Shown piece after piece: positions 22,139 to 63,723 of a stretch of DNA of 64,000 nt. The DNA is from an uncultured virus (IMG/VR IMGVR_UViG_2576861110_000002) (lineage: Duplodnaviria; Heunggongvirae; Uroviricota; Caudoviricetes), in IMG/VR virus record IMGVR_UViG_2576861110_000002, positions 1 to 64,000 of that record; one strand, 5' to 3'. The notes beneath the pieces are model-generated. The model did not search any database. It saw nothing but the letters and a program-made list of their open reading frames with translations, and was not told where the DNA came from. Both the position numbers and the translations under genes were made by a program. The stretch's first letter is position 1. Each line of letters opens with the position of its first letter.

Positions 22139-22212
22139 GTCTAGGAACTCATCATAAATTCATAGTTAGTAAGTTGCAAAAATGCTCTATATCAGTATGG
22201 GGCATTTTTGTT

Positions 22213-24501
22213 ATGGCAAATTCAAATCACAATGATACAGTTTTATCCTATGACGAGCTCGGCTTTATCATTGGAATGAAACGAGTTGAAAAAAAAGTTA
22301 GTACGATTGATTCAAACATTGAAAAGATCATTGGTATCCTTACTCAAAGCTTTGAAGAGCAAAAAGCACAATTTGCACAGCCTCAGCCTAAACTGACTGA
22401 ATTTCAAAAGATGCTTAATGCTGTCAATAATAGACAAGCTTTAGATTTTGAAGATTTATTAAAAGACAAAGCTAATCCAATCACTCAATCTTTTGTTGTA
22501 GCAGACAAGCTGGTCAAAGACTTTGCTGATGTTTTGGACCAATCAATTAATGACCTTAAAACAGTAGATAAAAAACAAATCAACAAATCTAATGGGCGAA
22601 AGCCCGCTATAGAAATTAATAGTCATGATGACTTATCAAAAATTGTAAATCCTAGTGTACCAGAGCGTGACGAAAAAGGCCGTTTTGTATCAAACCCTAA
22701 TGAACCCCAAAACCAATCATCAATTCGTAAAGTTGCCCAAACGATATCTACGGCGATTAAAGGAGTAATGCCGAACTCAACACAAGGTGTAGATCCTACA
22801 GTTGACGCAATCAATGAAGTTGGTCATTTACTTTCACCTGTACGCCGTGCAGCAGGATTAGCTTTGCGGCCATTAACTGGATTGATGCGTAGTAAAAAGA
22901 GAAATGAGCCATTACCTCGTGAACAAGAGAACCATAACCGCAAACAAATAAAGTTATTGCAGCGTATTGCCGATAATTTGGCGTCTAAGGGTGGTTTGTT
23001 AGGTTCTCTAGGGAAATTGCTTACTTCCGTGTTATCTGCTGGTGGTGGGCTTCTAGGTGGTGCTCTAGGCAAAGGAAAGAAAGGTGTAGGGAAATTAGGA
23101 AAGGGCTTAGGTAAATTTCTTAAGTTTGGCCGTGGTCTACCCGTAATAGGTGCATTGGCTGCTGGTGCATCATTATTAGATTGGAATGAACAAAGCACAC
23201 AAGAAAAAGGCGGTACTGTTGGTAGTCTTGCGGGTGGAGTAATTGGTGGTACTGTCGGGTCTTTATTTGGTCCAGTTGGAACATTAATTGGTGGTATGGC
23301 TGGTTCTTGGATTGGGAATAAGCTAGGTACCGTAGTTGCGCCGTATTTTAAAGAGTGGACAGATTCATTAATTGCTGCAGATGTACCAGGTATTATTAAT
23401 ACTGCTTGGAAAGGGTTTGTTAACTATGCAACCAATGCTTTTGAACTGACAAAAGGTACAGCATCAAAAGTTGTAGACGGTGTTAAAGATACTGCTAGTG
23501 ATACCTTAGATTTCATTAAGGATAAATTTAATCGCTTTAATCCATTTCATGACGGCGTTCCCACATGGGGCATTGGGCAAGGAGTTTATAAGCCGGGTTT
23601 TGGAGCAAATAAAAATGTACCTGCTTATGGATCAACTATTTCTCCAATTGGTGAAAAAACTAAGGAAAAGCAACTTGCAGTTTACAATGCTATGAAGAAA
23701 GCAGGTTTTAATGATAATTGGGCTGCTGGTTTAACTGCTTCCGTTGGTCGAGAAAATGATTATCGAGATGAATACTTGTTTGGTAAACATCAAGATAAAG
23801 CTGGTGGAATAAATATGGGAATGATTTCTTGGCAAGGAGCTCGTAAAGACCGGCTTACGGCATATATGAAGGAAAGGGGATTACTTGATGCAAACGGTAA
23901 TATGGTACGGAGCCAAGCAGCTTTAGATGCACAAGGTGCATTTATGAAGCATGAAATCGAAACGAATCCAGAATATGCTTCAGTTAAAGCTTATATGCAG
24001 AAAAACCCAAATGCATCAAAAGAAGATATTGCCCGAGTTCTCGGCACAAAATATGTAAGATGGGCGTATGGGCAAACAAAGCTTCGCAATGGGAAGTCAT
24101 TTGATTATAGACCGCATTTAGAAAAGGAATATAAATACAGAGCTAACATTGATAAAACCGTTCAGGAACAGAAAACTAATCTACCTAAAGAAAATACCCC
24201 AACTGTATCAGATTTGAAATCAAGTCATATTGTGGAAAATACAAGAGCTAAAGTTGCTAGTGTTTTAAGCACCCAAAAAGCTATCGTTCCCCAAGCTACT
24301 ACAAAAGCAAAACCTTCATTAAATAATCAAAATAGATTATTAACTAATGTCACGCCGTTTAAGCAACCTTTAAATACTCCTAACCCACAGGAAGTCGTTG
24401 TTGTTAATGGTAATAATGGTAATATCAGTCAGAATGTAAATGATAGATTCCTAGCACATGCTTTAACTGGTGGGATAGGAATGGGAAACTTAGAAGGTTA
24501 G
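22213..24501 (+). CDS. Tape-measure/injection protein with phage tail lysozyme domain (P1 Sit-like role)
   Basis: Gly-rich hydrophobic segments; AAGLTASVGREN...GMISWQGARKDRL lysozyme-like motif; ATG 22213 preferred over TTG 22174. Confidence 0.75.
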   Translation: MANSNHNDTVLSYDELGFIIGMKRVEKKVSTIDSNIEKIIGILTQSFEEQKAQFAQPQPKLTEFQKMLNAVNNRQALDFEDLLKDKANPITQSFVVADKLVKDFADVLDQSINDLKTVDKKQINKSNGRKPAIEINSHDDLSKIVNPSVPERDEKGRFVSNPNEPQNQSSIRKVAQTISTAIKGVMPNSTQGVDPTVDAINEVGHLLSPVRRAAGLALRPLTGLMRSKKRNEPLPREQENHNRKQIKLLQRIADNLASKGGLLGSLGKLLTSVLSAGGGLLGGALGKGKKGVGKLGKGLGKFLKFGRGLPVIGALAAGASLLDWNEQSTQEKGGTVGSLAGGVIGGTVGSLFGPVGTLIGGMAGSWIGNKLGTVVAPYFKEWTDSLIAADVPGIINTAWKGFVNYATNAFELTKGTASKVVDGVKDTASDTLDFIKDKFNRFNPFHDGVPTWGIGQGVYKPGFGANKNVPAYGSTISPIGEKTKEKQLAVYNAMKKAGFNDNWAAGLTASVGRENDYRDEYLFGKHQDKAGGINMGMISWQGARKDRLTAYMKERGLLDANGNMVRSQAALDAQGAFMKHEIETNPEYASVKAYMQKNPNASKEDIARVLGTKYVRWAYGQTKLRNGKSFDYRPHLEKEYKYRANIDKTVQEQKTNLPKENTPTVSDLKSSHIVENTRAKVASVLSTQKAIVPQATTKAKPSLNNQNRLLTNVTPFKQPLNTPNPQEVVVVNGNNGNISQNVNDRFLAHALTGGIGMGNLEG

Positions 24502-24508
24502 TTTATTA

Positions 24509-27795: not shown

Positions 27796-27825
27796 AAAAA
27801 ACCTGCATATGCAGGTTTTTACTTT
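27796..27825 (+). terminator. Intrinsic terminator
   Basis: AAAAACCTGC-ATAT-GCAGGTTTTT. Confidence 0.8.
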
Positions 27826-27912
27826 TAAAGGTTATGAAAATTAATGGAACTTACTTAATTCTCAGAATAAATTTACTTAGAAGATAACCTCATTGATATG
27901 AGGTTATTTTTC

Positions 27913-28854
27913 ATGGGCAGTCTTAATCTTGCAGCTATAACAGCTACTTCTCCATACATTAAAAAGATCCAATCGGCATTAGAAAAAGCAACAGGCCAAA
28001 CGATTGTTACACCAGAATTTCGCAAAATTAAGCGCGTTGCTGGTGTTAGCGTTTTACCAGTTGCATTTTTCTTTTCTGGTGGCGCTACGCTTACACTTTA
28101 TATTCGTGCATTAGCGGATGTAGTGAAGGCCGAACTGAATGATAAAGTAATTGTTCTATCTGGCGATTTTAGTGATGACTATAAGCCAACATTTGAAAAC
28201 GCCGTAAGTTGTGTTGCTAAACTTATCCGTGAAGCACAATCTAAAATCCAAGAACAAAATAAGCGTGAAAAAGTTAGCTTACCGCCGCGCCGTACTTCTG
28301 TAGATCAGAAAATTAAAGAAGTCGAAGAACAAGAGCAAAAGCTTGATGAGGATTTAGCTAAGCAAATAGCTCACCGTGACCAGCTGAAAGAACAAATTGA
28401 ACATGCTAAGCAACAACTTGGTATAAGTTCGGAGGCTGGTCAATCCGAACTGGGAAAGCCTGAATTTGATAGTGCGAGTCCAATCAAATCAGTTACAGCA
28501 AATATCACACGTGGTAAAGCTGCAATGAACAAAGCCATTATGGAAAAAACCACAGTGCATAGAGCTATGTATCGTAATGATCTAGGCTGGGTGGATTTTG
28601 AGTATGGCAGTGATAAACAGGGCATTAAGCATATTATCAAGCGCCGTATGGAAAGTGATGGCATGACATATGATGAAGTTGTGCATATGCTTGTGGATAC
28701 TATTGTGCAAACAATCGCTCAAGGTAGTACACAACGGCGTACAGAACGTGGATTATCTACAAGAATAAATATTGTATTTAATTCGCATGAAGCGTCATTG
28801 ATTAAGCGAGAAGGTAGTAATGCATGGCTGCTTACAGCTTTTGAAGTGCATTAA
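27913..28854 (+). CDS. DarA-N/Hdf-like head-associated protein fused to a PBECR (barnase/ColE5/RelE-fold) nuclease-like domain
   Basis: N-terminal KIKRVAGVSVLPV.FFFSGG...DVVKAELNDK (DarA_N-like), coiled coil, C-terminal LGWVDFEYG..KQGIKHII...WLLTAFE (PBECR1-like). Confidence 0.65.
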   Translation: MGSLNLAAITATSPYIKKIQSALEKATGQTIVTPEFRKIKRVAGVSVLPVAFFFSGGATLTLYIRALADVVKAELNDKVIVLSGDFSDDYKPTFENAVSCVAKLIREAQSKIQEQNKREKVSLPPRRTSVDQKIKEVEEQEQKLDEDLAKQIAHRDQLKEQIEHAKQQLGISSEAGQSELGKPEFDSASPIKSVTANITRGKAAMNKAIMEKTTVHRAMYRNDLGWVDFEYGSDKQGIKHIIKRRMESDGMTYDEVVHMLVDTIVQTIAQGSTQRRTERGLSTRINIVFNSHEASLIKREGSNAWLLTAFEVH

Positions 28855-28945
28855 AAAAAGCCCGGTAGTTAGAGATGGGTTGCGACATCTTCTAACCTAC
28901 ACTTATGACCCTATACGTTCTCGTGTCATAAGTGGAGCGGGCTTT
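28853..28945 (-). ncRNA. Candidate structured ~93-nt RNA convergent on the DarA-N/PBECR gene
   Basis: Minus-strand TTGAAA(28980-28975)-17-TATTAT(28957-28952); closing stem AAAGCCCG/CGGGCTTT enclosing two hairpins; U7 tail. Confidence 0.55.
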
Positions 28946-29053
28946 GTATATATAATAATCCATGCATTTCTTATTTTCAAATATGGAACCATTCACGCTT
29001 ACATATATACAAAAGCAATACCCTTAATATAGTTCTTATTAAGGGTGTTTTTT

Positions 29054-29410
29054 ATGCAAATTCAAATCGGTATTGATATTGTCTTAATTCTTGCATTTTT
29101 AGCTTATCTTTCCGTTGTTACAGGATGGAATAGCAAGAATAAAGCTGCGTATATTAAACAATTCCGTCATGTGCCTATAAGCCTCTTATTTAAAGAAATC
29201 AGATATATGTATTTCATAAGTATGGCATGTGTATTGATCACTATTATTCTTGTTGATTGGCGAATCTATAACGTTGCTTCATATTTTGATGCATTAAGCG
29301 TTTCATTATGGATATTCATAATCTATTTCACCATTTTTTCAACTTACCAGATCGGCACTGCAATACTAGTAAAGCTTTTGATGATTTTCAGTAATAGAGC
29401 AACTTCCTAA
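29054..29410 (+). CDS. Small three-TM membrane protein
   Basis: Three hydrophobic segments; first gene after a GGAAC element. Confidence 0.65.
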   Translation: MQIQIGIDIVLILAFLAYLSVVTGWNSKNKAAYIKQFRHVPISLLFKEIRYMYFISMACVLITIILVDWRIYNVASYFDALSVSLWIFIIYFTIFSTYQIGTAILVKLLMIFSNRATS

Positions 29411-29748
29411 TGATCACATCTAAAACAATTTTAGACATGGTTGAGTACTGGCTTAATCATCCGGTTAATGGGAAGTATGGTTCTGACTTTGGTGCACCTC
29501 TTTATGATTTGCTAATGGCACCTTTAGACTCGAGGGTGGCAGATAGTTTTCTTATTAAGATGAAAAAGGATCTACCAATATTATCTGAGCTTAACTCTGA
29601 CCAATTAGCCCTGTATTCACAAACCGAAGGATTTGAGACGGTTCATATTCATTTAAGCATCATGAATGTGAATATAGATCTTAACCAAGTAGCAGACCGA
29701 TTGGGTAAATCAGTAACAGGTGAGACATATGACATTAACGCAAGCTGA
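29410..29748 (+). CDS. Baseplate wedge gp25/W-like protein
   Basis: GKYGSDFGAPLYDLL motif; directly upstream of a baseplate J-like gene. Confidence 0.6.
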   Translation: MITSKTILDMVEYWLNHPVNGKYGSDFGAPLYDLLMAPLDSRVADSFLIKMKKDLPILSELNSDQLALYSQTEGFETVHIHLSIMNVNIDLNQVADRLGKSVTGETYDINAS

Positions 29749-31174: not shown

Positions 31175-31776
31175 GCTTTACTCGGCCTATCGATGAACAC
31201 TATGTAAGTACGGGCTTGCAAACCGCACTTGCTAAAGCATTTAAACAAGTATTTGCACAAAACTTTGAGCAGTCCATTCAAGATTTATTGGATTACGGTT
31301 GTCCTCATATCGGTAGTAAAACAGTTGTAGAACGGTTCTCTAAACAAAACGGACTTGTTGTATTACGCCGAAATAACACCTCTGACACGTTAATGCGAAT
31401 TATCTATGCCAATTGGAGCAGCATGGGTAATAAAAGAGGATTAGCGTTTTTAGAGTTTGTTTTACGAATGTTGTGGGGGAAAGATCATTTTCAGATTATC
31501 CGGCTATGGCATAGCTTGGAAAAGCTAAAAGAATATCCAGCCTATTTGTCTGATTTTGAAAAGCCAAATTACTTCTTAACAAGTCGGATTAGAATTGTTT
31601 TAGATAAAACTGTTGATGCAAATGAAGTGGTAGAGCTGTCACCGATATTACGGCGTTTAGTACCAGCCAATATTGTCGTTAAAGTTCACTCAATGGCATT
31701 TGATAGAGATTTAGGCACAACAAGCTTTACAGCGGCAATAGCAGCTAAGCCTTATGCAGTCTATAACTTCCTTTAA
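31162..31776 (+). CDS. Baseplate/tail I-like protein
   Basis: KRGLAFLEFVL...LRRLVPANI; follows the J-like gene. Confidence 0.6.
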   Translation: MDPISFTRPIDEHYVSTGLQTALAKAFKQVFAQNFEQSIQDLLDYGCPHIGSKTVVERFSKQNGLVVLRRNNTSDTLMRIIYANWSSMGNKRGLAFLEFVLRMLWGKDHFQIIRLWHSLEKLKEYPAYLSDFEKPNYFLTSRIRIVLDKTVDANEVVELSPILRRLVPANIVVKVHSMAFDRDLGTTSFTAAIAAKPYAVYNFL

Positions 31777-31854
31777 TTCAATTGGAACTGTTGAGTTAGC
31801 GCTCAAATACAAAATGATTTCATAGTCCTGTTCATTAGTTCAGGACTTTTTTAT

Positions 31855-32313
31855 ATGCAACAAGCTCAAGACAATGTTTTAGTAGGAATCGCAGAACCTA
31901 TCAATGATCAGGGAGAAAACTTATTAATTGATCATTTCTTAGGATATGCAAGCCATGAATTAGAACCACAAGAAATTGATAAAGTTATTAAAGGGGAAGT
32001 GGTTGAAGGCATCACGGAATATGCTCAGGGCCATTACTATAAGATTTCAGCAAATCCTGAAAACCAAAATGCAAAAGAATTTGAAATCAGTATTCATTTT
32101 CAGGATGGCCCAATTCCAGAACATGGTGTGAATGGGGTTACCAGTGAAGCATTGTTAAAAGTACTTATTCACCGTACTAAAACCTTGGATGAAAAATTTC
32201 CGAGTGAGTTCAACAAACAAGCCATTATTTATATGGAAAGTGCGCTAGAAGAATTTAATAAGCGTACAGCTGAACGCCGTGCTCGTGGTGTTGAAGGCAC
32301 ACTTGTTAAGTAA
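31855..32313 (+). CDS. tad1: Tad1-family anti-defence sponge protein with acidic N-terminal extension
   Basis: HYYKI...IHFQDGP..EHGVNGVTSEALLKVLIHR...FPSEFN.QAI..MESAL..FNKRTAERRARGVEGT matches the Tad1 pattern I.FQ.G...GV....LL....R...F.S.EN..A....EAL....R...R..R.V.GT. Confidence 0.78.
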   Translation: MQQAQDNVLVGIAEPINDQGENLLIDHFLGYASHELEPQEIDKVIKGEVVEGITEYAQGHYYKISANPENQNAKEFEISIHFQDGPIPEHGVNGVTSEALLKVLIHRTKTLDEKFPSEFNKQAIIYMESALEEFNKRTAERRARGVEGTLVK

Positions 32314-32324
32314 TGGGGTGATGT

Positions 32325-32552
32325 ATGCGTTTAAGTATTTTTTGTCGAAAGCGTGGTTGCTCTCAATTAATTGACTTATCTCAAATGGATTGTTTGCAAG
32401 TCTCCCAAAGTGAACATAGAGGCGGCATGGTTAGTGAAAGCTTTTATGACGTTTTTATCTCACTTAAAAGTGGATACATTTTTGATGCAACCATTGAAGA
32501 TAAACAGCATGACAAGCTATTGGAATTGATTGAGTTTGATCAAAAGATTTGA
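32325..32552 (+). CDS. Hypothetical protein
   Basis: 75-aa ORF with an SD, directly after the Tad1-like gene. Confidence 0.6.
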   Translation: MRLSIFCRKRGCSQLIDLSQMDCLQVSQSEHRGGMVSESFYDVFISLKSGYIFDATIEDKQHDKLLELIEFDQKI

Positions 32553-32624
32553 TTTGGAACTGATTAAATTTCAACTGTAGAACAACTGAAACAATAGCCT
32601 CAATCACAGCATTGGGGCTTTTTT

Positions 32625-33530
32625 ATGGCTAGCAAAAATAGAAAGACAAAAGTTCTATCTTACAACTTACATGATCGATGCCGTAAATTTACCGGTGTTG
32701 ATCGAAGTAATGTCGATGTAGATGCAATGGTCAACTTGATCAACAGTGACCATGTACAAGAAATGGTTGCTACTAATTCATTACAAGGTTTTTATGGTCA
32801 TCAAATTCGACAGCGCTATGGTATGGTGCCGCCTGAAACGGTGATCATTAAAGGTAAAGTTGTATATCTTTCACGGGCGTTTAAAACAATTGAATTACGT
32901 GCTTCAAAGGATGGAACAGTTGAACACCGAGAAGAGTTTTATGATAACGAGCCTGGTGAGATCGCATTACAAGATTATAAAGCCCAAGCGGGTGGTTTTA
33001 GCACATCAGTCAATTACAAGAATGTCGGTGGCCGTTTAATTCCAACGGGTTTTTTTGGTTTTGATTTCGTTGCACAACCAAATTATGCAAGTAATGTAGG
33101 GGATGGTCAGTTATTTGATGGATTATTTGTTCCTGAAGAGCCAGAAGGTGTTGTTTCTTGCTTTGATAGCGCAACAGATATTTCACAGTTATCACAACCT
33201 GAAATTATTATTGCCCAATTACTTGAAGATCAAATCTTACAGACCTACGACAATATCAATAGCCAACTTCAACTTTTAAATGAGTTAGGAAATGCTCAAG
33301 GCTTAGTAGGTGAACTCTCAGAAAAAGTTGATAAACAGAAACGCCTGCAACAACTTAGAGAAGAACGCAAAAAAGAACTCTATACGGGTTTGGTAAATCC
33401 GGTGAAGAGCTTTGATTCAGTTCAACAACATGCTGAACAAATTCTGCAATCCATGGATCAGCCAAGTGTAAAAGAAAAAGCTAAAAAGCCGAAAAAGTCT
33501 TTTGGCAGTATCTTTAGTGTATGGGGGTAA
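32625..33530 (+). CDS. Prohead protease/head processing protein (P1 Pro-like)
   Basis: GFYGHQIR, GTVEHREEF..NEPG, AGGFS, FGFDFVAQPNY. Confidence 0.7.
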   Translation: MASKNRKTKVLSYNLHDRCRKFTGVDRSNVDVDAMVNLINSDHVQEMVATNSLQGFYGHQIRQRYGMVPPETVIIKGKVVYLSRAFKTIELRASKDGTVEHREEFYDNEPGEIALQDYKAQAGGFSTSVNYKNVGGRLIPTGFFGFDFVAQPNYASNVGDGQLFDGLFVPEEPEGVVSCFDSATDISQLSQPEIIIAQLLEDQILQTYDNINSQLQLLNELGNAQGLVGELSEKVDKQKRLQQLREERKKELYTGLVNPVKSFDSVQQHAEQILQSMDQPSVKEKAKKPKKSFGSIFSVWG

Positions 33531-33532
33531 TA

Positions 33533-34348: not shown

Positions 34349-34529
34349 GGCACAAGAAAGTGCTGATTATTTATTGCAGCAAGAAATTGCAAATCGATGC
34401 CGTTTTGACGGCGAATCTGAAAAAGAATGTATTGAATGTGGTGAAGAGATACCAGAGCGTCGCCGTGCACTTGGTGGGGTTAAATTCTGCATTGAATGTC
34501 AAACCAAGATAGAACGTAAACGGCGCTAA
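34329..34529 (+). CDS. TraR/DksA C4 zinc-finger protein
   Basis: MTDLIDKAQ, CIECGEEIPERRR...CIECQ. Confidence 0.9.
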   Translation: MTDLIDKAQESADYLLQQEIANRCRFDGESEKECIECGEEIPERRRALGGVKFCIECQTKIERKRR

Positions 34530-34540
34530 GGATAAATGTA

Positions 34541-37064: not shown

Positions 37065-37136
37065 TTATATGGAACTGCCCACTTAAATACCTATTCTTCA
37101 TAACTACCATAGATCAATAAATCATATGGGTGGGTT

Positions 37137-38738
37137 ATGGCTATTAATTTCTTTTTAACTGACGCAGGTCGGAATGCATTAAATAAAGCAGGCGATGTTG
37201 CTAGCTTTGGTGGGGAGCTTACTCATCTTGCTGTTGGTACCGGCAAATTTGATGCATCAGTTGAAGCGAAAAACCTAACTTCTCTTAAAAATGAATTAGC
37301 CAGATTTTCGCTTAATGGTGGTGGTGTAGACACAGAAACTGGAACTTTGCGTTTTGTGATGAGTATTGAGCCAACTTTAACAATGGAAGTGTTTGAGTTA
37401 GGTATATATCTATCAGATGGCACTTTACTTGCAGTGGCGTCAACTACAGAAGTTCAATCAATCATGTCACTGCATGCAAACGTGGTTGCTATCGTTACTT
37501 TTGGATTTGTTTTAACTGACGTTAATTTAAAAAATGTAACTATAAAAATTGATCCAAATACTCCAATTGCAGTGATGTTGATGAACCAGCATAGTGCAGA
37601 TGAAGATCCACACCCGCAGTACGGCGCGTTAATACAGGAAATAATCAAAGAACACTTAAATCAAAATGATCCACACCCGCAGTACGGCGCGTTAATACAG
37701 GAAATAATCAAAGAACACTTAAATCAAAATGATCCACATTCACAATATGCTTTTAGAAAAGACGTAAAAGAAAAAGATGAGGATTTACAGCGCCAAATTA
37801 ATGGTTTAGATACTTCATCCCAAAATTTAAGTCAGCAGCTAACGGATTTAAAAAAATATTTAGATTCTCAATATCCGAAATTATTGGGAGCAGGGGTAAA
37901 CATTGGGTCTAAAGCTACTATTGATTTGGGTGGAAAGGTAACTGACTTACGTGACTCAAAATATGCAATCCATTTAACACCTGAAAGCATGCATGAAGCG
38001 TGGACAATAACGCGTTCTGAAAAGTCATTTGATTATGAAGTTTGGAACCGTTCAGGGCAAAACCGAATTGGGTATTCTGGAATTGTAAGTTGGTCTGTAA
38101 TTCAAGTTGCTGCAGAAACACTAAACGATGGTAATGGCGATTACACAGTACCAGGTGTTTATATCATTCCAATTCAACCAAAAGAACAAAAAGAATTCAT
38201 ATTGGTTGGTGCTGGTGGTGCTGGTGGTGGCAGTGTCTGGGAGTTAGGAGCATTGGCACATGGGACCAGTGGTACAGATACACGCTTACGTTTAAATGAA
38301 CTTGATTTGGCGGTTGTTGGGGGCGGTAAGGGCGGTACAAGTGGTCAGTGGTCGAATGGTAGTGCTTTCTCAAATGGTGCTGGTGGTTTAGCAGGTGTAA
38401 TCACTGTGACATCAAACATTACCGAAATTTCACGCAAGCTTGGTAACGCTGGTACAGCTGCAAACCAAACAAACCACAAAGGCGGTGCTTCAGTAAGTCC
38501 AGAGGGTAATTGGGGTGCAGGTGGAGATGGCGCAAATGGAGTTGGTGATCTTGGTTGGGGTTTAGGTGGTGGCGGTGCTAGTGGCGGATTATTGGTTTGT
38601 AGATATTCTAATATCAGTGAAAAAATTCAATACATGACACTCATTGTTGGTGAACCTGGTGTTGCAACCGAAAGTAATGGTAACACTGGTAAAGCAGGTA
38701 CTGGTGGCTTTGCTCGTGTAAGTACTGTTAAAGCTTAA
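37137..38738 (+). CDS. Tail fibre (tail-collar N-terminus, DPHPQY repeats, Gly-rich C-terminus)
   Basis: LTDAGRNAL, ELGIYLSDGTLLAV, DPHPQY, VGAGGAGGG. Confidence 0.85.
   Translation: MAINFFLTDAGRNALNKAGDVASFGGELTHLAVGTGKFDASVEAKNLTSLKNELARFSLNGGGVDTETGTLRFVMSIEPTLTMEVFELGIYLSDGTLLAVASTTEVQSIMSLHANVVAIVTFGFVLTDVNLKNVTIKIDPNTPIAVMLMNQHSADEDPHPQYGALIQEIIKEHLNQNDPHPQYGALIQEIIKEHLNQNDPHSQYAFRKDVKEKDEDLQRQINGLDTSSQNLSQQLTDLKKYLDSQYPKLLGAGVNIGSKATIDLGGKVTDLRDSKYAIHLTPESMHEAWTITRSEKSFDYEVWNRSGQNRIGYSGIVSWSVIQVAAETLNDGNGDYTVPGVYIIPIQPKEQKEFILVGAGGAGGGSVWELGALAHGTSGTDTRLRLNELDLAVVGGGKGGTSGQWSNGSAFSNGAGGLAGVITVTSNITEISRKLGNAGTAANQTNHKGGASVSPEGNWGAGGDGANGVGDLGWGLGGGGASGGLLVCRYSNISEKIQYMTLIVGEPGVATESNGNTGKAGTGGFARVSTVKA
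37605..37738 (+). repeat. Perfect 63-bp in-frame tandem duplication
   Basis: 37605-37667 is identical to 37668-37730, followed by a partial third copy. Confidence 0.95.
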
Positions 38739-41000: not shown

Positions 41001-41154
41001 CTATATAAATAAAGGGCTGAGATGGTCCTTTAGCTACATTTTCTTTGTCCTCAATTTTGGGGACTTTTTTATGTTTGGAACCGACCAGCTTTAGTAAAAA
41101 TAGGCCATGTCAGACTTTCTGCATCTTACATAGAAAGCCAAAGGCTGGTTTAAA

Positions 41155-42933
41155 ATGACTGTGTTATCAGAAGAAATTCGTAAAAAGTATGAGGCTCAAC
41201 AAATTGCTACAGCTCAGTGCCGAAATTACTATTTCAAAAGTCCTGATGAGCTTGAAAATGGGTTTGACAGTGCACAAACAGCGGCAGAAGAGTACCCAGA
41301 AGTATTAAAAGCAATTTTTGATTCAATTGGCATCGAATATGCGCCAGAAGTTGATAAAGCTGTGATGTTTGGGGTATCACAATATCAAGCACGCCATGGG
41401 GGTGAATTACCGCATCCTTCAATCATTGCAGCTGCGTTAACTGCTGGTTTAAGTGGTGCTAAACAAGCTGGTTCTTTGCCAACTGATACTATTAGCTATT
41501 ATGACAGTATTAATGAATCTGGATTTGATGATGTAAATCATCAGCATCATGAATCTGTAAGTATCGTCCCAGCGATTACTGTAGCAACCATTGCAAACGT
41601 TATCGCTTATGCAACGCCAATTGTCGCAATGATTCCAAATTCTAATGGATCAAATGAAGTTCCGTTAGTATCTATTCGTTTTGTCACCAATCGTGATTTT
41701 GGTGCAATGAAGAAATCAGAATACTTAGACGGTGCAAATGCCTCAAAGCCATATGTAGAGGGCCGTTTACGTTTTGCATTGTCAAATGGTGGTGCAGGTA
41801 CAACTTACTCAGTAGTAGCACGAACCGGTTATGAAGATTTCAAGGCTAAAACCCCTGATGTAAATGCTAAGTTGCTTCCATTCATTGCTGGTAATGTATC
41901 AATCAAAATCAACGGTAAAGAAGTCGCGCATACTCGAAACCGTAGTAAATCAAAATTTTCTGGCAAGATTTCCGCTATCGCTGAAAAAAACGTATTTGTA
42001 AACGGCGTAGAGTATCGTGTTGTTGGTAGTGAAATTGACCTTAATGCTAGCAAAATTAGCGTGACTTTAAATGAAGCTTTACCTGCTGGTGCTAAAGTTG
42101 AAGTTCATCTTGTCGCTGATTTTGATGCGCGTGATGGTAATGGTAACTTCTTAATGACGCCTGTTGGTGTTGATTTTGAACCTGAATATGAAAATTTGGT
42201 GGCTTCACCAATTATGGCACAGGTTACAGCGGCCACCTTATTGCAGACTCAGTTGAATAATGAACTCAAACTCGGCTTCTTAGGTCAAGCTTTAGCAATT
42301 ATTCAAGGTAAAGTTTTCTTGGAGCAAACGGTCCGTCTTTTAGGTGAAGCAAAAGATTTAGCTGAATACTCAGGCCACGAAATTACTTTTGATGCTTCTC
42401 GTGGTGTAACTGGTAAATTGGCAGCTGCGTTTAATACCACTGGTGATCTGTTTGGCGAAGTAATGAAGTTCATTTCGGCTGCAAAAATGGATATTAATCA
42501 GCGTACTGGTGGTTCTACTGTTGCATACGATTTGTATGTTGGGGATAGTGGTGCAGTATTCTTTAACCAACTTTCTAGCGATAAGATGCCGACAAAAACT
42601 GGGTACTCTGCTGGTTATGGTCAAATTGTCCGTATTGGTACTCTTGCAGATGGTACAAACGTTTACCACGCACCGACAGCACAAGAGCTTGTAGCTGAAG
42701 CAGATACAGCGTTTGATCTGCTTTTAGTTGGTCGTGGTAATGAGCCAATTCGTGCGCCGTTCGTTGGCTTTATTCAAACGCCTCTTTCAGTTATTGAAAC
42801 TCGACCAGATGCGCGTGAATCAGTACTTACTTTAATCGGTGCTCAAGCAGCCGAAATGAACCCGTTAGAACGTTATGCTGATCAAAGCTATGTCATCCAC
42901 TGTATCAATATGCCATCTCTTAAAAAATCGTAA
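41155..42933 (+). CDS. Major capsid protein (P1 gp23-like)
   Basis: 592 aa, own late element, high-expression codon usage, N-terminal propeptide-like region, terminator after (42945-42970). Confidence 0.7.
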   Translation: MTVLSEEIRKKYEAQQIATAQCRNYYFKSPDELENGFDSAQTAAEEYPEVLKAIFDSIGIEYAPEVDKAVMFGVSQYQARHGGELPHPSIIAAALTAGLSGAKQAGSLPTDTISYYDSINESGFDDVNHQHHESVSIVPAITVATIANVIAYATPIVAMIPNSNGSNEVPLVSIRFVTNRDFGAMKKSEYLDGANASKPYVEGRLRFALSNGGAGTTYSVVARTGYEDFKAKTPDVNAKLLPFIAGNVSIKINGKEVAHTRNRSKSKFSGKISAIAEKNVFVNGVEYRVVGSEIDLNASKISVTLNEALPAGAKVEVHLVADFDARDGNGNFLMTPVGVDFEPEYENLVASPIMAQVTAATLLQTQLNNELKLGFLGQALAIIQGKVFLEQTVRLLGEAKDLAEYSGHEITFDASRGVTGKLAAAFNTTGDLFGEVMKFISAAKMDINQRTGGSTVAYDLYVGDSGAVFFNQLSSDKMPTKTGYSAGYGQIVRIGTLADGTNVYHAPTAQELVAEADTAFDLLLVGRGNEPIRAPFVGFIQTPLSVIETRPDARESVLTLIGAQAAEMNPLERYADQSYVIHCINMPSLKKS

Positions 42934-43915: not shown

Positions 43916-44033
43916 AATTTAGGAAATGAAAAACCACTTTCGAGTGGTTTTTTTTACATTGGAACTAGCCAGAAAATCAAAAAAGCCAACGGCTCAAAAT
44001 ACTTAAAACAAATAGCCTTGGGCGTGTAATGTA

Positions 44034-45329
44034 ATGAATATACTTGCTCTATCAAGTACAGGTGAGCTATCCCTTGTAGCAGGGGCCAGCCCATCACTAA
44101 AACTGGAATTTGATACTCACAGTTATCTTGCAAATACAGAAATCAATGTGGCCTTTTTTGCGAAAGTAACTAGCCCACGCGGTCCTGCAGATATTTCTAT
44201 GCGTTTGGAAATCCGTGATGCGGTAACAGGTGATCAAATTGTTACTGTTCAGGGATTAGTAGATGGAGACATTGAAAATTCTGCTTCTATTGTCGCTGTA
44301 GCTGATGCGAAAGAATATTTTGAGCGTTTTGATTTATCGTTAGGTATTGATGCGTTACAAGCAATACTCAAATCAAATGCTTATAACGAATCAAATAGCT
44401 TAGGTCGTGCTTCAAAAACATTGGCATTGGAAGATGAATCGTTACCATCATTTAATCCAGATGAACTATATAAGATTCTGACGAGTCAATTAAGTACACC
44501 AGCATATCTGACTTTACCAAATCCTCATGATTTACCAATTTATGTTGCGGCACAACGTGCAGCTACAAAGTTACGTATTCCTTTGGATGCTGAAATCAAC
44601 CCAACTTTTACAGCTGAGCAAGCAGCTCAATTTGCGACAAGTGTAGATGCACAATCACAGTTTGTTCAATTCATTTGGAGTCCGAACCTATGCCGTCCAT
44701 CTGGTGCTGTCACACTAAGAGGGCGTAAGGTCCCAGCTTATTATTTGGGCCATTACATCGGCGATAAATTATTACGTAACGCAAAGTTAAATAAACAAGG
44801 CTTTGCGCCGTTAAAAAATGCAGTAGCTTGGAAAGATTATCCATTTACAGCAAAAAACTTAAGCCAGATGCCGAATATTGATCTTGAAGATGAACAGACT
44901 CAAGAAATGTTGGCAAAGGCTAAAGTAAATGTAGTTCGCCCAGTTAAGTTTGAAACTACATTATTCGTTTTAAGTGATGTATTAACCCAGTATCAAAGTA
45001 AAAATAGTGCATTGCGTTTAGTTCCTGCAGCTGAGATTGCGGCACGAGTTACGAATAAATGTATCGAAATCCTTAGAACTTACATGTTCCAAGCTACACC
45101 GGACTATATCAAAAAAGCTGGTGATGAAATTCAAGAGTTTTTAGAGGGTGCTTCTAGTGAAACAACCGGTTGGTTACAACCGGCTGAAGATCTAGGTGGT
45201 AAACCTTTTGAGTTCAGTTTAATACCTGACAAAGACTATCCATATGAGCGTGTACGACTCTATTTAGCCCATGGAGTTGTTGGTACAACTCGTGCCGCAA
45301 TTTTTGATGACGACGTTTTAGTTAAATAA
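44034..45329 (+). CDS. Tail sheath protein
   Basis: Sheath-like C-terminus (EMLAKAKVNVV, SDVLT...SALR, GWLQP, ERVRLYL...GTTRA). Confidence 0.65.
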   Translation: MNILALSSTGELSLVAGASPSLKLEFDTHSYLANTEINVAFFAKVTSPRGPADISMRLEIRDAVTGDQIVTVQGLVDGDIENSASIVAVADAKEYFERFDLSLGIDALQAILKSNAYNESNSLGRASKTLALEDESLPSFNPDELYKILTSQLSTPAYLTLPNPHDLPIYVAAQRAATKLRIPLDAEINPTFTAEQAAQFATSVDAQSQFVQFIWSPNLCRPSGAVTLRGRKVPAYYLGHYIGDKLLRNAKLNKQGFAPLKNAVAWKDYPFTAKNLSQMPNIDLEDEQTQEMLAKAKVNVVRPVKFETTLFVLSDVLTQYQSKNSALRLVPAAEIAARVTNKCIEILRTYMFQATPDYIKKAGDEIQEFLEGASSETTGWLQPAEDLGGKPFEFSLIPDKDYPYERVRLYLAHGVVGTTRAAIFDDDVLVK

Positions 45330-47929: not shown

Positions 47930-48018
47930 AATATTTTTCTTGTGGAGTTGGAACTAACTAACTTCTAAGCTTTCCTCATTGTAAATAATGGCTTTATTCA
48001 ATGAATAGGGTCATTATT

Positions 48019-48150
48019 ATGTCCAAAGCTTTAGCTTATGCACCGGCAGTAAATACAGCTAGAACAAAGTTGCCCAGTACTGAATCAGATCCTTTCTATT
48101 TTAGGCACATTACAAGAAAATCAGTTATTATGAAAATCATAACAACTTGA
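48019..48150 (+). pseudogene. 43-aa ORF behind a late element; probable truncated late-gene 5' end
   Basis: GGAAC element and hairpin upstream; MSKALAYAPAVNTARTKLPSTESDPFY then runs into AT-rich sequence. Confidence 0.4.
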
Positions 48151-48979: not shown

Positions 48980-49106
48980 TATAGCCCGCTTTTGCGGGTT
49001 TTTTTATTAATATAAAGTCAGTTTTCTAAAATGGAACTGATTAAAAACCAATAGCAAAAACATCATTAATCTTGTTGCATAAATCTGCATTTTGAGCATC
49101 AAAATT

Positions 49107-49754
49107 ATGCAACAATCTAATCCGATTTTACTAAATCAGCTTAAACAAGATTACATTGCTCTACAGCAACTTGGTTCACCCTTATTAGCATGTCAGGGGA
49201 TGTTTGTTCCTCGTGGCATGGAAGACCTTCGCTTCTTATTTAAAAGTTGCCCACGGCCAATTGTGAGTAATGAAGATCCAGCAGAAGTTCAATATGCTGG
49301 TGGATTTACTGGAATTGTTGCTGGTCCTCCGAAAACCCATTACACAGGCAACCTTCAAATCCTAGTAACTGAAGCAGGGCATGATCAATTATTAGCTGAA
49401 TATGTCGTAGCTAGTGGTGGAATCATCCATGGTGATTATTACGATGGCCGATTAGGAAGTTTTACACGCTCATATGCACTTGAAAACTGTGCTATTCGCT
49501 TTGAGTCAGCTGAGTATGATTCAGATAGCCGATCTCAAGTTATGACTGTCTCTTGCCCAATCGACTATAACTACTTTGGTAGCTTCGCAAACATTGGTAC
49601 CAACGGCAGTATTCAGCCGGGTAAAAAAGAAATTGATGGTACAGCTGAGCTTGTTAATCGAGTTCAGCAAGTGATCAATACTGCTCAACAAGCAACTAAT
49701 CTTGCAAATGCTGTGCAAGGCGTTGGTCGTCAACTGGGCAATCTATTTGGGTGA
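49107..49754 (+). CDS. Tail tube/baseplate tube-fold protein (P1 BplB-like)
   Basis: Size, beta-rich pattern, IDYNYF; first gene after a GGAAC element. Confidence 0.5.
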   Translation: MQQSNPILLNQLKQDYIALQQLGSPLLACQGMFVPRGMEDLRFLFKSCPRPIVSNEDPAEVQYAGGFTGIVAGPPKTHYTGNLQILVTEAGHDQLLAEYVVASGGIIHGDYYDGRLGSFTRSYALENCAIRFESAEYDSDSRSQVMTVSCPIDYNYFGSFANIGTNGSIQPGKKEIDGTAELVNRVQQVINTAQQATNLANAVQGVGRQLGNLFG

Positions 49755-61833: not shown

Positions 61834-62028
61834 TTATGCAGGCTGATCATTACTTTGTGGTTCTTCTACAAAAGTGTAGTTAACTGCAATGGAACCAGTC
61901 TCCAAATCCCAGCCTAGGTTTAATGTTTTGAAAGCAGGACGATTATTATATCGTTGACTATTTACAATATCTTTTGTCTTTTGAGCTAATTCGATATCTA
62001 AATCGTTAAATACTTTAACTTCAGCCAT
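61834..62028 (-). CDS. Small hypothetical late protein
   Basis: SD AAGGA, own GGAAC element on the minus strand, bidirectional terminator at ~61794-61818. Confidence 0.65.
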   Translation of the reverse strand: MAEVKVFNDLDIELAQKTKDIVNSQRYNNRPAFKTLNLGWDLETGSIAVNYTFVEEPQSNDQPA

Positions 62029-62100: not shown

Positions 62101-62124
62101 GGGTTCCAATTCACTTTGGAACCC
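62101..62124. promoter_or_regulatory. Back-to-back GGAAC late elements forming a palindrome
   Basis: GGGTTCCAA-TTCACT-TTGGAACCC between divergent genes. Confidence 0.7.
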
Positions 62125-62187
62125 ATCTAAAAGTAAAAAAATAGCAGCCTTCAAAATACATAATTATTTAGGTATTTTGGCTTCGTT

Positions 62188-63723
62188 ATGTCTTCTCGGT
62201 TCTTATCGTTGTTACTCGGTGAAAATGTTAATTCATATGATCAGCAATTCGATACGTCTAATCAGGATGCAACAGCACAGCTATATGAAACTATGGCTCC
62301 GTTTTCACTTGGGACTAACCAAACCAAAGCCAATAAGAAGCGTACTCGGAAAGAAATTCTTACTAAATGGGAGAGAATGTTACGCTTTGCACCTATCGCA
62401 GAGGGTATGGGGATTCATGTTTCTGCAGCCTTAGGCGGCGATTCTTATAGCGGCCAACAAGTCTTTATTACGCCCGCAGAACGGTTAAAAAAGGCGAATG
62501 GACCAGCAGCTGAAAAACTAAAAAAACAACTAGATGAGCGCCGTGTAAAGATGGAAAAGCTGATCAATAAGTATTTAAGCAAGCTAGCCCGAGATGCAAT
62601 TTCATTTGGTGATTCTTATGCACGTATTTACGGGAAAAAAGATAAAGGTGTAATTGACCTCGTATGTAATGAGTATACTTATCCACCATTAATACAACCT
62701 TTCGAACAAGGCAGTAAGACTGTCGCCTTTTTTTGTTTAGATCCTCGCAATTGGCAAAAAACTATTACCAAACTGAATACTATCCAAATGGTACGTTTCA
62801 AAATGCCCCGTATGAGCAATATTGCTCAATATGAGCTTGTTGAAACTGGTCTTGTCACGAAAATGTTGGAGGGTGATGATCCAGATGAGCTACCAATCTT
62901 ACCCGCGCATTTAGGCGGCTCATTTCTTTATGAGATTGAAGATATTTATGATGATGTAATCCTCGCTTTGGCATCTATGAATAGCCAGCAAATCGCAGAT
63001 ACCGTAAATCAGATGTTCTTGACAGTAAATATGTCAGGAATGCCGCCAGCACAACGTCAAGCCTATATTCGTGGTTTAGAAGGTTTGCTTAAAAATCATG
63101 AGGCTTATGTCCGTGATGCTTTATCAGGTGGTGAAGCAGTCTGGAATACTGCTTTTCACATGCTTCCAGTATTTGATGAAAAACAAGTTCTAAATCCAGT
63201 GGGTGATATCAAGAATCAACGAAGCTCACCTATTAATATTGAACAGTTCATGATTAATGTCCGTTTGTTAATGGGCGGTATAGGTCTAGACCCAAGTATG
63301 GTAGGGTGGGCTGACATGTTAACTGGTGGTATTGGAGAAGGTGGAGCATTCCATACTTCTGCACAAATCATGCGTAGGTCACAAGACATTCGAACAGCAG
63401 CTTCCGAAGGGATTAATCAAATTCTTCACTTGGATTGGGGTTTTGCTTATAACGAACAATTTGAGCCTGAAGATTACCCTTGGCAAGTTGAATATTATTC
63501 AAACCAAACTGCAGCAGCTACGGAAGAAATCAACAATGCTCAATCAAGAATGAATACAACATTACTTAAAACACAAGTAATCGCATCATTGAAAGAATCA
63601 AATTTAGATGTAGATATTATGGCCTACATTCTTGAGCGCGATACAGGTATGAAATATGAGGAAGCATTAACATTAGCTGAAAGTATTGCTAAGAGCCGTA
63701 AATTTCCAGAGGATGAAGAATAA
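62188..63723 (+). CDS. Portal protein (P1 Prt-like)
   Basis: 511 aa, helical; GIGLDPSMVGWADMLTGGIGEGGAFHTSAQ. Confidence 0.7.
   Translation: MSSRFLSLLLGENVNSYDQQFDTSNQDATAQLYETMAPFSLGTNQTKANKKRTRKEILTKWERMLRFAPIAEGMGIHVSAALGGDSYSGQQVFITPAERLKKANGPAAEKLKKQLDERRVKMEKLINKYLSKLARDAISFGDSYARIYGKKDKGVIDLVCNEYTYPPLIQPFEQGSKTVAFFCLDPRNWQKTITKLNTIQMVRFKMPRMSNIAQYELVETGLVTKMLEGDDPDELPILPAHLGGSFLYEIEDIYDDVILALASMNSQQIADTVNQMFLTVNMSGMPPAQRQAYIRGLEGLLKNHEAYVRDALSGGEAVWNTAFHMLPVFDEKQVLNPVGDIKNQRSSPINIEQFMINVRLLMGGIGLDPSMVGWADMLTGGIGEGGAFHTSAQIMRRSQDIRTAASEGINQILHLDWGFAYNEQFEPEDYPWQVEYYSNQTAAATEEINNAQSRMNTTLLKTQVIASLKESNLDVDIMAYILERDTGMKYEEALTLAESIAKSRKFPEDEE

What the first reader, a model, noticed from the sequence alone, without database searches (positions are those of the whole stretch)
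22177..62188. RBS-sequestering hairpins whose 5' arm overlaps the late -10: a second, translational lock
Seen: most GGAAC units have an inverted repeat ending 0-8 nt before the ATG with the SD-like sequence in the 3' arm. Examples: CAAAAATGCTCTATA/TATGGGGCATTTTTG (22177-22210), ATAACCTCA/TGAGGTTAT (~27884-27907), AATACCCTTAATA/TATTAAGGGTGTT (~29017-29049), AGTCCTG/CAGGACT (~31824-31847), AGCCTCAAT/ATTGGGGCT (~32596-32619), AATAATGGCTTTATTCA/TGAATAGGGTCATTATT (~47984-48018), CAAAATAC/GTATTTTG (62152-62179). The predicted -10 lies in or just before the 5' arm. Known: T4 genes e, soc and I-TevI use this logic. Inference: read-through RNA from constitutive morons or early promoters folds the hairpin and is not translated (some stems with U tails may also terminate), while true late transcripts lack the 5' arm. 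This would explain how so many constitutive morons are tolerated among structural genes.
Basis: partly seen in the sequence, partly recalled or inferred. Interest (0 to 1): 0.8.

Follow-up and report, generated by a model that had tools for sequence, protein, structure and literature searches.

The report
Late promoters nested inside RNA hairpins
In this Acinetobacter phage most late-gene promoters sit inside a hairpin that can form only in RNA arriving from upstream, where it would stop that RNA or hide the next gene's ribosome site, while RNA started at the promoter itself probably escapes.

Summary
The window is 1-64000 of a 78.9-kb Acinetobacter temperate myophage, about 93% identical to vB_AbaM_ABMM1. 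It holds 11 (genome: 14) cassettes: TTGGAAC, a 29-nt variable spacer, a -10-like cAaAATagCC motif, then the start codon about 69 nt after GGAAC. RBS masking by upstream sequence exceeds shuffles (summed z = 7.2) and 57 control genes (p = 3e-4). The hairpins are kept in other Acinetobacter species and Alkanindiges with compensatory changes, and fold better as + strand RNA. The -10-like hexamer always overlaps or abuts the 5' arm, so a start about 7 nt downstream would leave late mRNA without that arm. About three quarters of the hairpins carry a U-run and look like ordinary intrinsic terminators of the preceding operon. They are rare where a separate terminator already precedes GGAAC. The tail-fiber cassette has no U-run and masks the start codon, which is a pure translational lock. 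No transcription start is mapped (four RNA runs gave no reads), and the link to morons is untested. The logic is that of T4 genes e, soc and I-TevI, used genome-wide. Two earlier notes of this scan describe similar cassettes in other phages.

The parts
22144..22215 (+). Late cassette 1, at the boundary between the early-right operon and the tail-lysin gene. GGAAC 22144-48; -10-like AAAAAT 22178-83; hairpin 22176-22211 followed by a T-run; ATG 22213.
   Evidence: -18.4 kcal/mol; 0 of 100 shuffles. Orthologous hairpins covary.
27798..27819 (+). Separate intrinsic-terminator-like hairpin after the HslV-like moron, 26 nt before the GGAAC at 27846.
   Evidence: -11.2 kcal/mol, T-rich tail.
27846..27915 (+). 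Late cassette 2. GGAAC 27846-50; -10-like GAAGAT 27880-85; hairpin 27880-27911 with GAGG in the 3' arm and a T5 run; ATG 27913.
   Evidence: -16.1; 2 of 100. The start codon is confirmed by a full-length PHROG match.
28985..29056 (+). Late cassette 3. GGAAC 28985-89; -10-like TACCCT 29019-24; hairpin 29017-29049 plus T6; ATG 29054.
   Evidence: flagged terminator-like; -15.3; 2 of 100.
31784..31857 (+). Late cassette 4. GGAAC 31784-88; hairpin 31824-31847 plus T6; ATG 31855. The -10 is ambiguous: either CAAAAT at positions 26-31 or CATAGT at positions 37-42.
   Evidence: -10.6; 2 of 100.
32556..32627 (+). Late cassette 5. GGAAC 32556-60; -10-like AACAAT 32590-95; hairpin 32596-32619 plus T6; ATG 32625.
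   Evidence: terminator-like; -11.2; orthologues covary; 1 of 100.
37071..37140 (+). Late cassette 6, before the tail-fiber gene. GGAAC 37071-75; -10-like TACCAT 37105-10. A two-tier stem at 37098-37140 pairs the -10 region with the SD and the start codon. There is no T-run. ATG 37137.
   Evidence: -12.8 in the window; relatives -18 to -25 kcal/mol.
41047..41064 (+). Terminator-like hairpin plus T6 just before the GGAAC at 41077.
41077..41157 (+). Late cassette 7. GGAAC 41077-81; CAGACT 41111-16; no local RBS hairpin; ATG 41155.
   Evidence: (55 of 100 shuffles reach it). The long-range pairing seen is not kept in L088.
43929..43955 (+). Terminator (stem at about 43934-47 plus T8) before the GGAAC at 43961.
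   Evidence: conserved across all but one (L056, a different upstream context) of the 20 distinct upstream sequences.
43961..44036 (+). Late cassette 8, before the sheath gene. GGAAC 43961-65; CAAAAT 43995-44000; no RBS hairpin; ATG 44034.
   Evidence: (88 of 100).
47950..48021 (+). Late cassette 9. GGAAC 47950-54; AATAAT 47984-89; 16-bp hairpin 47984-48018; no T-run. ATG 48019 opens only a 43-codon ORF. The cassette is a truncated duplicate of the one at genome position 72166.
   Evidence: -15.4; 2 of 100.
48983..49000 (+). Terminator after the Phd/RelE-like pair, before the GGAAC at 49033.
49033..49109 (+). Late cassette 10, before the tail-tube gene. GGAAC 49033-37; TAATCT 49067-72; only a weak A/U hairpin; ATG 49107.
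   Evidence: -6.8; 1 of 100.
62118..62190 (+). Late cassette 11, before the portal gene. GGAAC 62118-22; CAAAAT 62152-57, which is the start of the 5' arm; hairpin 62152-62179; ATG 62188.
   Evidence: -9.2; 13 of 100.

Best explanation
Each cassette is an activator-dependent late promoter for host RNA polymerase. A TTGGAAC box is centred near -44. A 29-nt spacer of fixed length but free sequence follows, and there is no -35. Next comes a -10-like hexamer xAxAAT followed by aGCC. The start is predicted about 7 nt downstream, at an A in 11 of 14 genome units, which gives a 20-32 nt leader. In about two thirds of cassettes an inverted repeat pairs the -10/discriminator region with the Shine-Dalgarno G-run, or in the tail-fiber cassette with the start codon itself. 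Because the 5' arm is promoter DNA, only RNA that arrives from upstream contains both arms. Where a U-run follows, in most cases, the hairpin is the intrinsic terminator of the preceding operon. Any RNA that still reads through, and all read-through RNA at cassettes without a U-run, has its ribosome site locked. RNA started at the cassette's own promoter lacks the 5' arm and is neither terminated nor locked. Shown: the anatomy, its statistics, conservation and covariation, sense-strand specificity, and depletion where an upstream terminator exists. Inferred: the TSS position, actual termination, actual translational silencing, and the activator's identity. Candidate activators are the syntenic 228-aa HTH and 279-aa proteins at 20248-21787.
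For: Motif: in 43 non-redundant units of 79, information is confined to TT-GGAAC and to positions 34-43 (A35 40/43, A37 41/43, A38 39/43, T39 40/43, C42 38/43). There is none at positions 5-33, and A46 occurs in 31/43. An unsupervised EM search places the motif at position 34 in 31 of 81 candidates and at 33-36 in 41 of 81. Orthologous units vary freely in the spacer but not in the two boxes. Masking: (z = 7.2; p = 3e-4 against 57 genes; long 10.9 against short 5.0 kcal/mol). The 5' arm overlaps the -10 in 27 of 27 hairpin units. Conservation: the lysin-gene unit gave 21 distinct sequences, all folding (-10 to -19 kcal/mol), with pair types such as GC/AT/CG, TA/CG and AT/TA at the same positions. 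The 301-aa-gene unit gave 13 sequences with CG/UG/UA variation. Tail-fiber unit: 21 of 26 true gene starts pair xCCATAAC with GTTATGGx (the start codon), and 3 of 26 use another register, AATAGCCATAG/CTATGGCTATT, with an A-T to G-C change coupled to a Val/Ala change in codon 2. RNA level: the sense fold is more stable than the antisense fold in 21 of 26 (p = 4e-5), and 31 of 337 pairs are G.U. Action on upstream RNA: upstream terminator against leader hairpin gives 3/7/24/5, Fisher p = 0.004. Within the 118-121-aa gene family, the window has a hairpin and no upstream terminator, and six relatives have the reverse. No phage RNA polymerase or sigma factor was found.
Against: No transcription start, 3' end or translation measurement exists: four RNA runs laid on 27800-47799 gave 0 reads. 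The -10 assignment rests on a motif alone. Unit 31784 and its distant orthologues have the best xAAAAT hexamer 8 nt closer to GGAAC. That would start RNA about 2 nt before the hairpin and its T6 run. Three to four of 14 units have no masking. Counts across relatives are not phylogenetically independent, and the hairpins were selected on the sense-strand fold. With a leader of only about 23 nt, any upstream anti-SD must overlap the promoter, so the overlap alone does not show design.
Confidence: 0.6

Rival explanations
1. The hairpins are ordinary intrinsic terminators of the preceding operon, squeezed between the next promoter's -10 and its start codon for compactness. The Shine-Dalgarno lies in the 3' arm only because a G-rich stem base plus a U-run resembles an SD plus spacer. 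There is no selected translational role.
For: Twenty of 27 hairpins are followed by at least 5 T in 7 nt. Two are flagged by the terminator scan. Their energies match the phage's stand-alone terminators at -11 to -13 kcal/mol. They are depleted where a stand-alone terminator exists. Most lie between two late operons.
Against: Seven of 27 lack a U-run. The tail-fiber cassette masks the start codon with an 8-11 bp stem and no U-run in two different registers, with covariation reaching into codon 2. Cassette 27846 has both a stand-alone terminator and a hairpin.
Confidence: 0.2
2. The late start lies upstream of the hairpin, for example with GGAAC acting as an ECF-type -35. The hairpin would then be part of every late mRNA, as a 5' stabiliser, an attenuator needing an antiterminator, or a translational timer.
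For: GGAAC resembles ECF -35 elements (recalled). Unit 31784 has a good hexamer that would start RNA just before the hairpin. A hairpin plus U-run right after a promoter recalls lambda pR'-tR' with Q (recalled).
Against: There is no information at 16-18 nt spacing after GGAAC (positions 21-28), and that stretch is the most variable part in orthologues. No sigma factor or Q-like protein was found. The link with absence of an upstream terminator is not expected for an element acting on its own transcript. Four cassettes work without any hairpin.
Confidence: 0.12
3. The inverted repeats act at the DNA level, as cruciforms, a hairpin promoter element, or recombination hot spots for module shuffling. 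RNA folding would be incidental.
For: In relative L082 the loop of the 29017-49 hairpin is inverted. Upstream contexts of the lysin cassette differ completely between relatives, with junctions near the cassette.
Against: G.U pairs make up 31 of 337, and the sense fold is more stable in 21 of 26. This asymmetry has no meaning for duplex DNA. SD or AUG content of the 3' arm is not required by a DNA role.
Confidence: 0.04

Closest known systems
T4 genes e, soc, 49 and I-TevI: RBS-sequestering hairpins opened by a late promoter placed in the 5' strand
   Same: The SD and/or AUG is paired in long, upstream-initiated RNA. [quoted passage not shown]
   Different: In T4 this applies to a few genes, uses the gp55 promoter TATAAATA, and has mapped 5' ends. 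Here it is the default design of about two thirds of late operon boundaries in a temperate Acinetobacter phage family. The promoter is different (TTGGAAC-N29-xAxAAT). It is usually fused with a U-run terminator, and nothing is mapped.
Intrinsic (Rho-independent) terminators
   Same: A G/C-based stem-loop is followed by 5-8 U at the end of a transcription unit. Energies match the phage's stand-alone terminators.
   Different: The terminator sits downstream of the next promoter's -10 and ends 0-3 nt before the next start codon. Its 3' arm is the next gene's SD. Seven of 27 have no U-run.
Dispersed activator-dependent phage late promoters: P1 Lpa/SspA-dependent, and Mu Mor/C-dependent
   Same: Many copies of a stereotyped promoter are spread through the late region, each with a -10, no -35 and a conserved upstream box. 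P1 late genes depend on Lpa (PMC8198154, passages read). A box centred near -44 matches the position of Mu Mor/C sites (recalled).
   Different: The box sequence and distance differ; the P1 box near -22 is recalled, not checked. No protein in the window is annotated as Lpa, Mor or C by PHROGs or Pfam. The activator is unknown.
PeSL promoter/stem-loop cassettes of T4-type phages
   Same: Repeated intergenic promoter-plus-stem-loop modules sit at the borders of variable gene modules.
   Different: As I recall, in PeSLs the stem-loop precedes an early promoter. Here the promoter's -10 is itself the 5' arm and the 3' arm is the RBS.

Membership tests
T4-type late-promoter-gated RBS hairpin (e / soc / I-TevI logic) | SD and/or start codon paired in RNA that includes upstream sequence | tested here: met
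   In-silico folds and opening energies. Ten or 11 of 14 units show it, and three show none.
T4-type late-promoter-gated RBS hairpin (e / soc / I-TevI logic) | Late transcription starts inside or after the 5' strand, so late RNA lacks it | tested here: inconclusive
   The -10-like hexamer overlaps the 5' arm in 27 of 27. No 5' ends were available (one search gave 0 reads). Unit 31784 is a possible exception.
T4-type late-promoter-gated RBS hairpin (e / soc / I-TevI logic) | Long transcripts from upstream promoters cross the site and are poorly translated | not testable with these tools
   Needs RNA-seq or Ribo-seq, or reporter fusions.
T4-type late-promoter-gated RBS hairpin (e / soc / I-TevI logic) | T4 late promoter TATAAATA read by gp55/gp33 | tested here: not met
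   The motif is TTGGAAC-N29-cAaAATagCC. No gp55-like or sigma-like protein was found. This is an analogue, not a homologue.
Intrinsic terminator | Stable stem-loop immediately followed by a U-run | tested here: met
   Twenty of 27 hairpin units. In the window: 22176-211, 27880-911, 29017-49, 31824-47 and 32596-619. Not met for 37098-140, 47984-48018 and 62152-79.
Intrinsic terminator | RNA 3' ends at the U-run | not testable with these tools
   Needs Term-seq or 3'-RACE.
ECF-sigma promoter (GGAAC -35) | -10 element 16-18 nt after the -35, and a cognate sigma factor | tested here: not met
   No information at positions 21-28, and that stretch is variable in orthologues. No sigma factor was found.
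P1 Lpa-dependent late promoters | Lpa homologue, and the conserved box at the P1 distance from the -10 | tested here: not met
   No Lpa-annotated family among 66 ORFs scanned. The box lies 29 nt before the -10. The P1 geometry is recalled, not checked.

The most novel reading that the evidence does not exclude
A whole family of Acinetobacter/Moraxellaceae temperate myophages builds its late-operon boundaries as one ~70-nt cassette. A single inverted repeat serves as the -10/discriminator of the next promoter, the terminator of the previous operon, and the anti-SD/SD (or anti-AUG) pair. Every late operon is thereby strictly promoter-autonomous. This promoter-gated insulator would let morons, toxin-antitoxin pairs and duplicated modules be inserted between structural operons without disturbing late-gene dosage. 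The repeated cassettes would themselves be the crossover points for module shuffling.
Probability: 0.35. Interest if true: 0.7.

Novelty: new variant of a known kind. Interest (0 to 1): 0.55.

Why it matters
If the predicted starts are right, this is a compact and portable design. About 35 nt carry a promoter core, a terminator, a translational lock and a ribosome site. One mapping experiment would test 14 cases at once. It would extend a T4 curiosity known from a few genes into a general organising principle of a temperate phage family that is very common in Acinetobacter baumannii genomes. It also defines an undescribed late-promoter class whose activator is unknown. The same design would be useful as an insulator part for synthetic operons.

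Tried and rejected
RNA evidence: the look-up of sequencing runs listed seven small holders kept only as contigs and 17 raw RNA runs of the same species label. I laid four of those 17 raw runs on 27800-47799 at 90% likeness and got 0 reads. This is no test either way.

ECF-type reading of GGAAC: rejected.

Sigma-54 reading (TGGCAC-N5-TTGC): rejected by eye, because no TTGC follows.

The long-range anti-SD right after GGAAC in units 41077 and 37071 is not kept in L088 and is no better than shuffles, so I dropped it.

Activator identity. The 90-aa ORF 21866-22138 has its own sigma-70-like promoter. Its model (pLDDT 78) has no Foldseek match at E <= 0.001. It has no homologue detected (tblastn, E <= 1e-3) in any searched relative except L092 (39%); L095, which keeps the neighbouring 228-aa and 279-aa genes, has none. 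The 279-aa ORF 20948-21787 gave a model with pLDDT 63. Only its N-terminal three-helix domain resembles paired/Mu-I-gamma HTH domains, and only weakly (best E = 0.56). Neither protein is assigned.

Rfam: 0 families at gathering score.

Literature: searches for the motif and for Acinetobacter late promoters found nothing relevant. The search for a promoter inside a terminator returned 113 papers, of which I saw 12 as listings and one passage that was irrelevant. 'Not described' therefore rests on these searches only.

The MAFFT alignment A5 mis-registers the two hairpin types by one column. I re-counted pairs from each sequence's own fold.


Full report
**What the DNA is.** The window is bases 1-64000 of a 78,862-bp virus record. 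It is about 93% identical over the structural region to the temperate Acinetobacter baumannii myophage vB_AbaM_ABMM1 (annotation). The left part holds lysogeny, replication and regulator genes. From about 22.1 kb rightward lie tail, baseplate, terminase, sheath, tube and portal genes, all on the + strand. These are interrupted by moron-like genes: a HicB-like gene, an HslV-like peptidase, an anti-repressor and a Phd/RelE-like pair. PHROGs and Pfam scans of 66 ORFs found no RNA polymerase or sigma factor. The 2575-aa ORF is a tail/baseplate-spike protein.

**The units.** GGAAC as a pentamer is not enriched: 83 copies against 78.7 expected. Eleven intergenic + strand copies, nearly all preceded by T or TT, lie 66-78 nt before a start codon. 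The distances are 69, 67, 69, 71, 69, 66, 78, 73, 69, 74 and 70 nt. Three more units lie beyond the window at 64382, 72166 and 73994. I fetched relatives from IMG/VR and from one genome per species. The same cassettes occur in prophages of A. nosocomialis, bohemicus, pragensis, kyonggiensis, venetianus, puyangensis, boissieri and modestus, and in Alkanindiges illinoisensis.

**The promoter.**
- An unsupervised motif search on 81 candidate units found cAaAATagCC. It starts at position 34 (counting the first G of GGAAC as 0) in 31 of 81, and at 33-36 in 41 of 81.
- In 43 non-redundant units (of 79) the information content is confined to TT-GGAAC and to positions 34-43: A35 40/43, A37 41/43, A38 39/43, T39 40/43, C42 38/43 and C43 28/43. 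Positions 5-33 carry no information. A46 occurs in 31/43, and a G-run lies at positions 57-59.
- Orthologous units confirm this. The stretch from about 10 to 33 nt after GGAAC is the most variable part, while both boxes are kept.
- The hexamer at positions 34-39 fits xAxAAT, with the two bases that matter most for a sigma-70 -10 (A-11 and T-7; established knowledge). In the genome, 13 of 14 have A at position 35 and 14 of 14 have T at position 39. The base at position 46 is A in 11 of 14.
- I therefore read GGAAC as an activator box centred near -44. There is no -35, the -10 is at positions 34-39, and the start is near position 46, giving 20-32 nt leaders.
- An ECF-type reading, with GGAAC as a -35, is rejected because nothing is conserved at the required spacing.
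- All of this is inference from sequence. Four RNA runs laid on 27800-47799 gave 0 reads.

**The hairpins.**
- In the window 7 of 11 units have a strong local hairpin with the G-run SD in the 3' arm. Two are weak and two have none.
- I computed the energy needed to free -14..+3 around the start codon, for -99..+33 (long) and -23..+33 (short). For the 14 units the mean is 10.9 (long) against 5.0 (short) kcal/mol. For 57 other + strand genes it is 7.5 against 5.9. The difference is larger in units (Mann-Whitney p = 3e-4).
- Shuffling only the upstream 76 nt gives a summed value of 152.2 observed against 99.5 +/- 7.3 (z = 7.2). Seven of 14 units are reached by at most 2 of 100 shuffles. Units 41155, 44034 and 74064 show no signal.

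**Conservation and covariation.**
- The cassette before the tail-lysin gene gave 21 distinct leader sequences from very different upstream contexts. All fold into a hairpin of at least 10 bp (-10 to -19 kcal/mol).
- At single stem positions the pair types are GC 13/AT 5/CG 3, TA 16/CG 5, AT 15/TA 5, and CG 17/TG 3/TA 1.
- The cassette before the 301-aa gene gave 13 distinct sequences, with CG 6/UG 5/UA 2 and CG 8/UG 5 at two positions.
- These sequences fall into a few lineages, so the number of independent events is small.
- Folding the hairpins on both strands shows the + strand RNA to be more stable in 21 of 26 (mean -13.5 against -10.1; Wilcoxon p = 4e-5). Of 337 pairs, 31 are G.U. The hairpins were chosen on the sense fold, which biases this test, but the gap is large.
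- Rfam has no match.

**Which RNA do they act on?**
- In 27 of 27 hairpin-bearing units the 5' arm spans positions within 31-53 and overlaps or abuts the -10 hexamer. RNA started at the cassette's own promoter cannot contain the arm's promoter-proximal part.
- Among 45 candidate units, 6 were dropped for a weak second motif. In the remaining 39, a separate terminator within 40 nt upstream of GGAAC and a leader hairpin (<= -8 kcal/mol) avoid one another. The counts are both 3, terminator only 7, hairpin only 24, neither 5 (Fisher p = 0.004, not corrected for relatedness).
- The window units outside that table fit the pattern. Units 41077, 43961 and 49033 have an upstream terminator and no strong hairpin. 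Units 31784 and 62118 have the reverse. Unit 37071 has neither strongly.
- Within one orthologous cassette (118-121-aa gene), the window copy has a hairpin and no upstream terminator, while six relatives have an upstream terminator and no hairpin.
- This is what one expects if the hairpin deals with RNA arriving from upstream. It is not expected for a 5' stabiliser or attenuator of the promoter's own RNA.

**Terminator or translational lock?**
- Twenty of 27 hairpins are followed by at least 5 T in 7 nt (a loose criterion). Their energies match the phage's stand-alone terminators.
- For these, the simplest reading is that the hairpin is the intrinsic terminator of the preceding operon, placed downstream of the next -10. 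RBS masking is then a back-up for molecules that read through.
- Seven of 27 have no U-run. The tail-fiber cassette (37071) is the clearest. I recovered 26 distinct true gene starts, from 28 distinct upstream sequences taken from the 79 IMG/VR loci together with the window and five GTDB loci; two of the 28 were not gene starts.
- In 21 of those 26, xCCATAAC just upstream of the -10 pairs with GTTATGGx, which contains the start codon. An inner stem pairs the -10 region with the SD. Energies run from -12.8 kcal/mol (the window's weaker TTCATAAC allele) to -24.8.
- Three distant relatives use another register, AATAGCCATAG/CTATGGCTATT. There an A-T to G-C change is coupled to a Val/Ala change in codon 2.
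- That is a translational lock without a terminator, found in two registers.

- Most hairpins separate one late operon from the next.
- Only 22144 (end of the early-right operon), 27846 (after the HslV-like moron, which also has its own terminator), and 47950/72166 (after a small HTH gene) follow early or moron-like genes.
- The claim that the locks explain tolerance of morons is therefore possible but untested.
- Unit 31784 is a possible counter-example. Its best hexamer, CAAAAT, lies at positions 26-31, as in its distant orthologues. That would put the start about 2 nt before a hairpin with a T6 run. A weaker CATAGT at positions 37-42 would rescue the model.

**Comparison with known systems.**
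- The logic is that of T4 genes e, soc, 49 and I-TevI. There the SD or AUG is paired in long early or middle RNA, and a late promoter in the 5' strand gives late RNA that lacks it (PMC3014915, passages read).
- This phage is not a member of that family by descent. The promoter and its factor differ.
- What differs most is scale and fusion. This is the default design of about two thirds of late boundaries, conserved across a phage family, and usually fused with a terminator.
- The dispersed activator-dependent promoters recall P1 (Lpa; PMC8198154, passages read) and Mu (Mor/C; recalled). No homologue of those activators was found.
- Two earlier notes of this scan describe related things on other DNA. 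One is a GGAAC box 28-29 nt before a -10 in a Psychrobacter phage. The other is late promoters nested in hairpins in a P1-like Acinetobacter phage-plasmid. I reached the same architecture before reading them. They are unchecked AI notes, not independent evidence.

**Verdict.** I put 0.6 on the combined model of a promoter-gated terminator and RBS lock acting on read-through RNA. The rivals get 0.2 for terminators with no translational role, 0.12 for a start upstream of the hairpin, and 0.04 for a DNA-level role. I class it as a new variant of a known kind. One 5'-end mapping experiment would decide it.

Noticed in passing
window 46503-46516 and 62103-62122: GGAAC occurs as inverted pairs: GTTCCagtaGGAAC, and GGTTCCAA..TTGGAACC. 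The 62103 copy faces the 64-aa minus-strand ORF 61834-62028 (79 nt to its ATG) but has only a poor second motif. The 46512 copy points antisense into the anti-repressor gene 46541-47437. These may be divergent or antisense late promoters.
   Followed up: partly
window 19424-19471: Two TGGAAC boxes 43 nt apart lie upstream of the operon 19549-21787, which encodes the RusA-like, 228-aa HTH and 279-aa candidate regulator proteins. The second motif is weak. This could be autoregulation of the late activator operon.
   Followed up: no
window 47540-47660: At least two and a half tandem copies of a ~34-bp repeat (…aatagcaattgcgagtattaataaaattatattt…) lie just upstream of the small HTH gene 47675-47929. 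They look like operators or iterons (seen).
   Followed up: no
window 46500-48250 versus genome 70770-72500: A module of anti-repressor, small HTH gene and late cassette is duplicated. The window copy of the cassette (47950) drives only a 43-codon remnant of the gene that the 72166 copy drives (264 aa). Its hairpin has lost the U-run and gained an AATAAT/ATTATT stem extension.
   Followed up: partly
window 41047-41073: The terminator before cassette 41077 reads GTCCTCAAT…GGGGACTTTTTTATG. This is a near copy of the leader hairpin plus ATG of cassette 32556, followed at once by TTGGAAC. It looks like a relic of a cassette left by recombination.
   Followed up: no
L082 (relative) versus window 29030-29036: The loop of the 29017-49 hairpin is replaced by its reverse complement in one relative, which is a flip at an inverted repeat.
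   Followed up: no
window 35073-37064: The large terminase carries an N-terminal extension: phrog_34449 over residues 1-241, and a weak Hom_end_hint hit over residues 61-123 that is below the Pfam cut-off. This may be an intein or Hint remnant.
   Followed up: no
window 10423, 12178, 18234, 26561, 50197 (gene starts): Five of 57 control genes also have their RBS masked by upstream sequence by 6.5-9.8 kcal/mol. These may be translational-coupling structures inside operons.
   Followed up: no
L096 4297, L098 12070, L097 12058, L102 12080 and window 31784: The cassette before the ~152-aa gene keeps its xAAAAT(G)GTT motif 21 nt rather than 29 nt after GGAAC across distant relatives. This is a second spacing class of the promoter.
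   Followed up: partly
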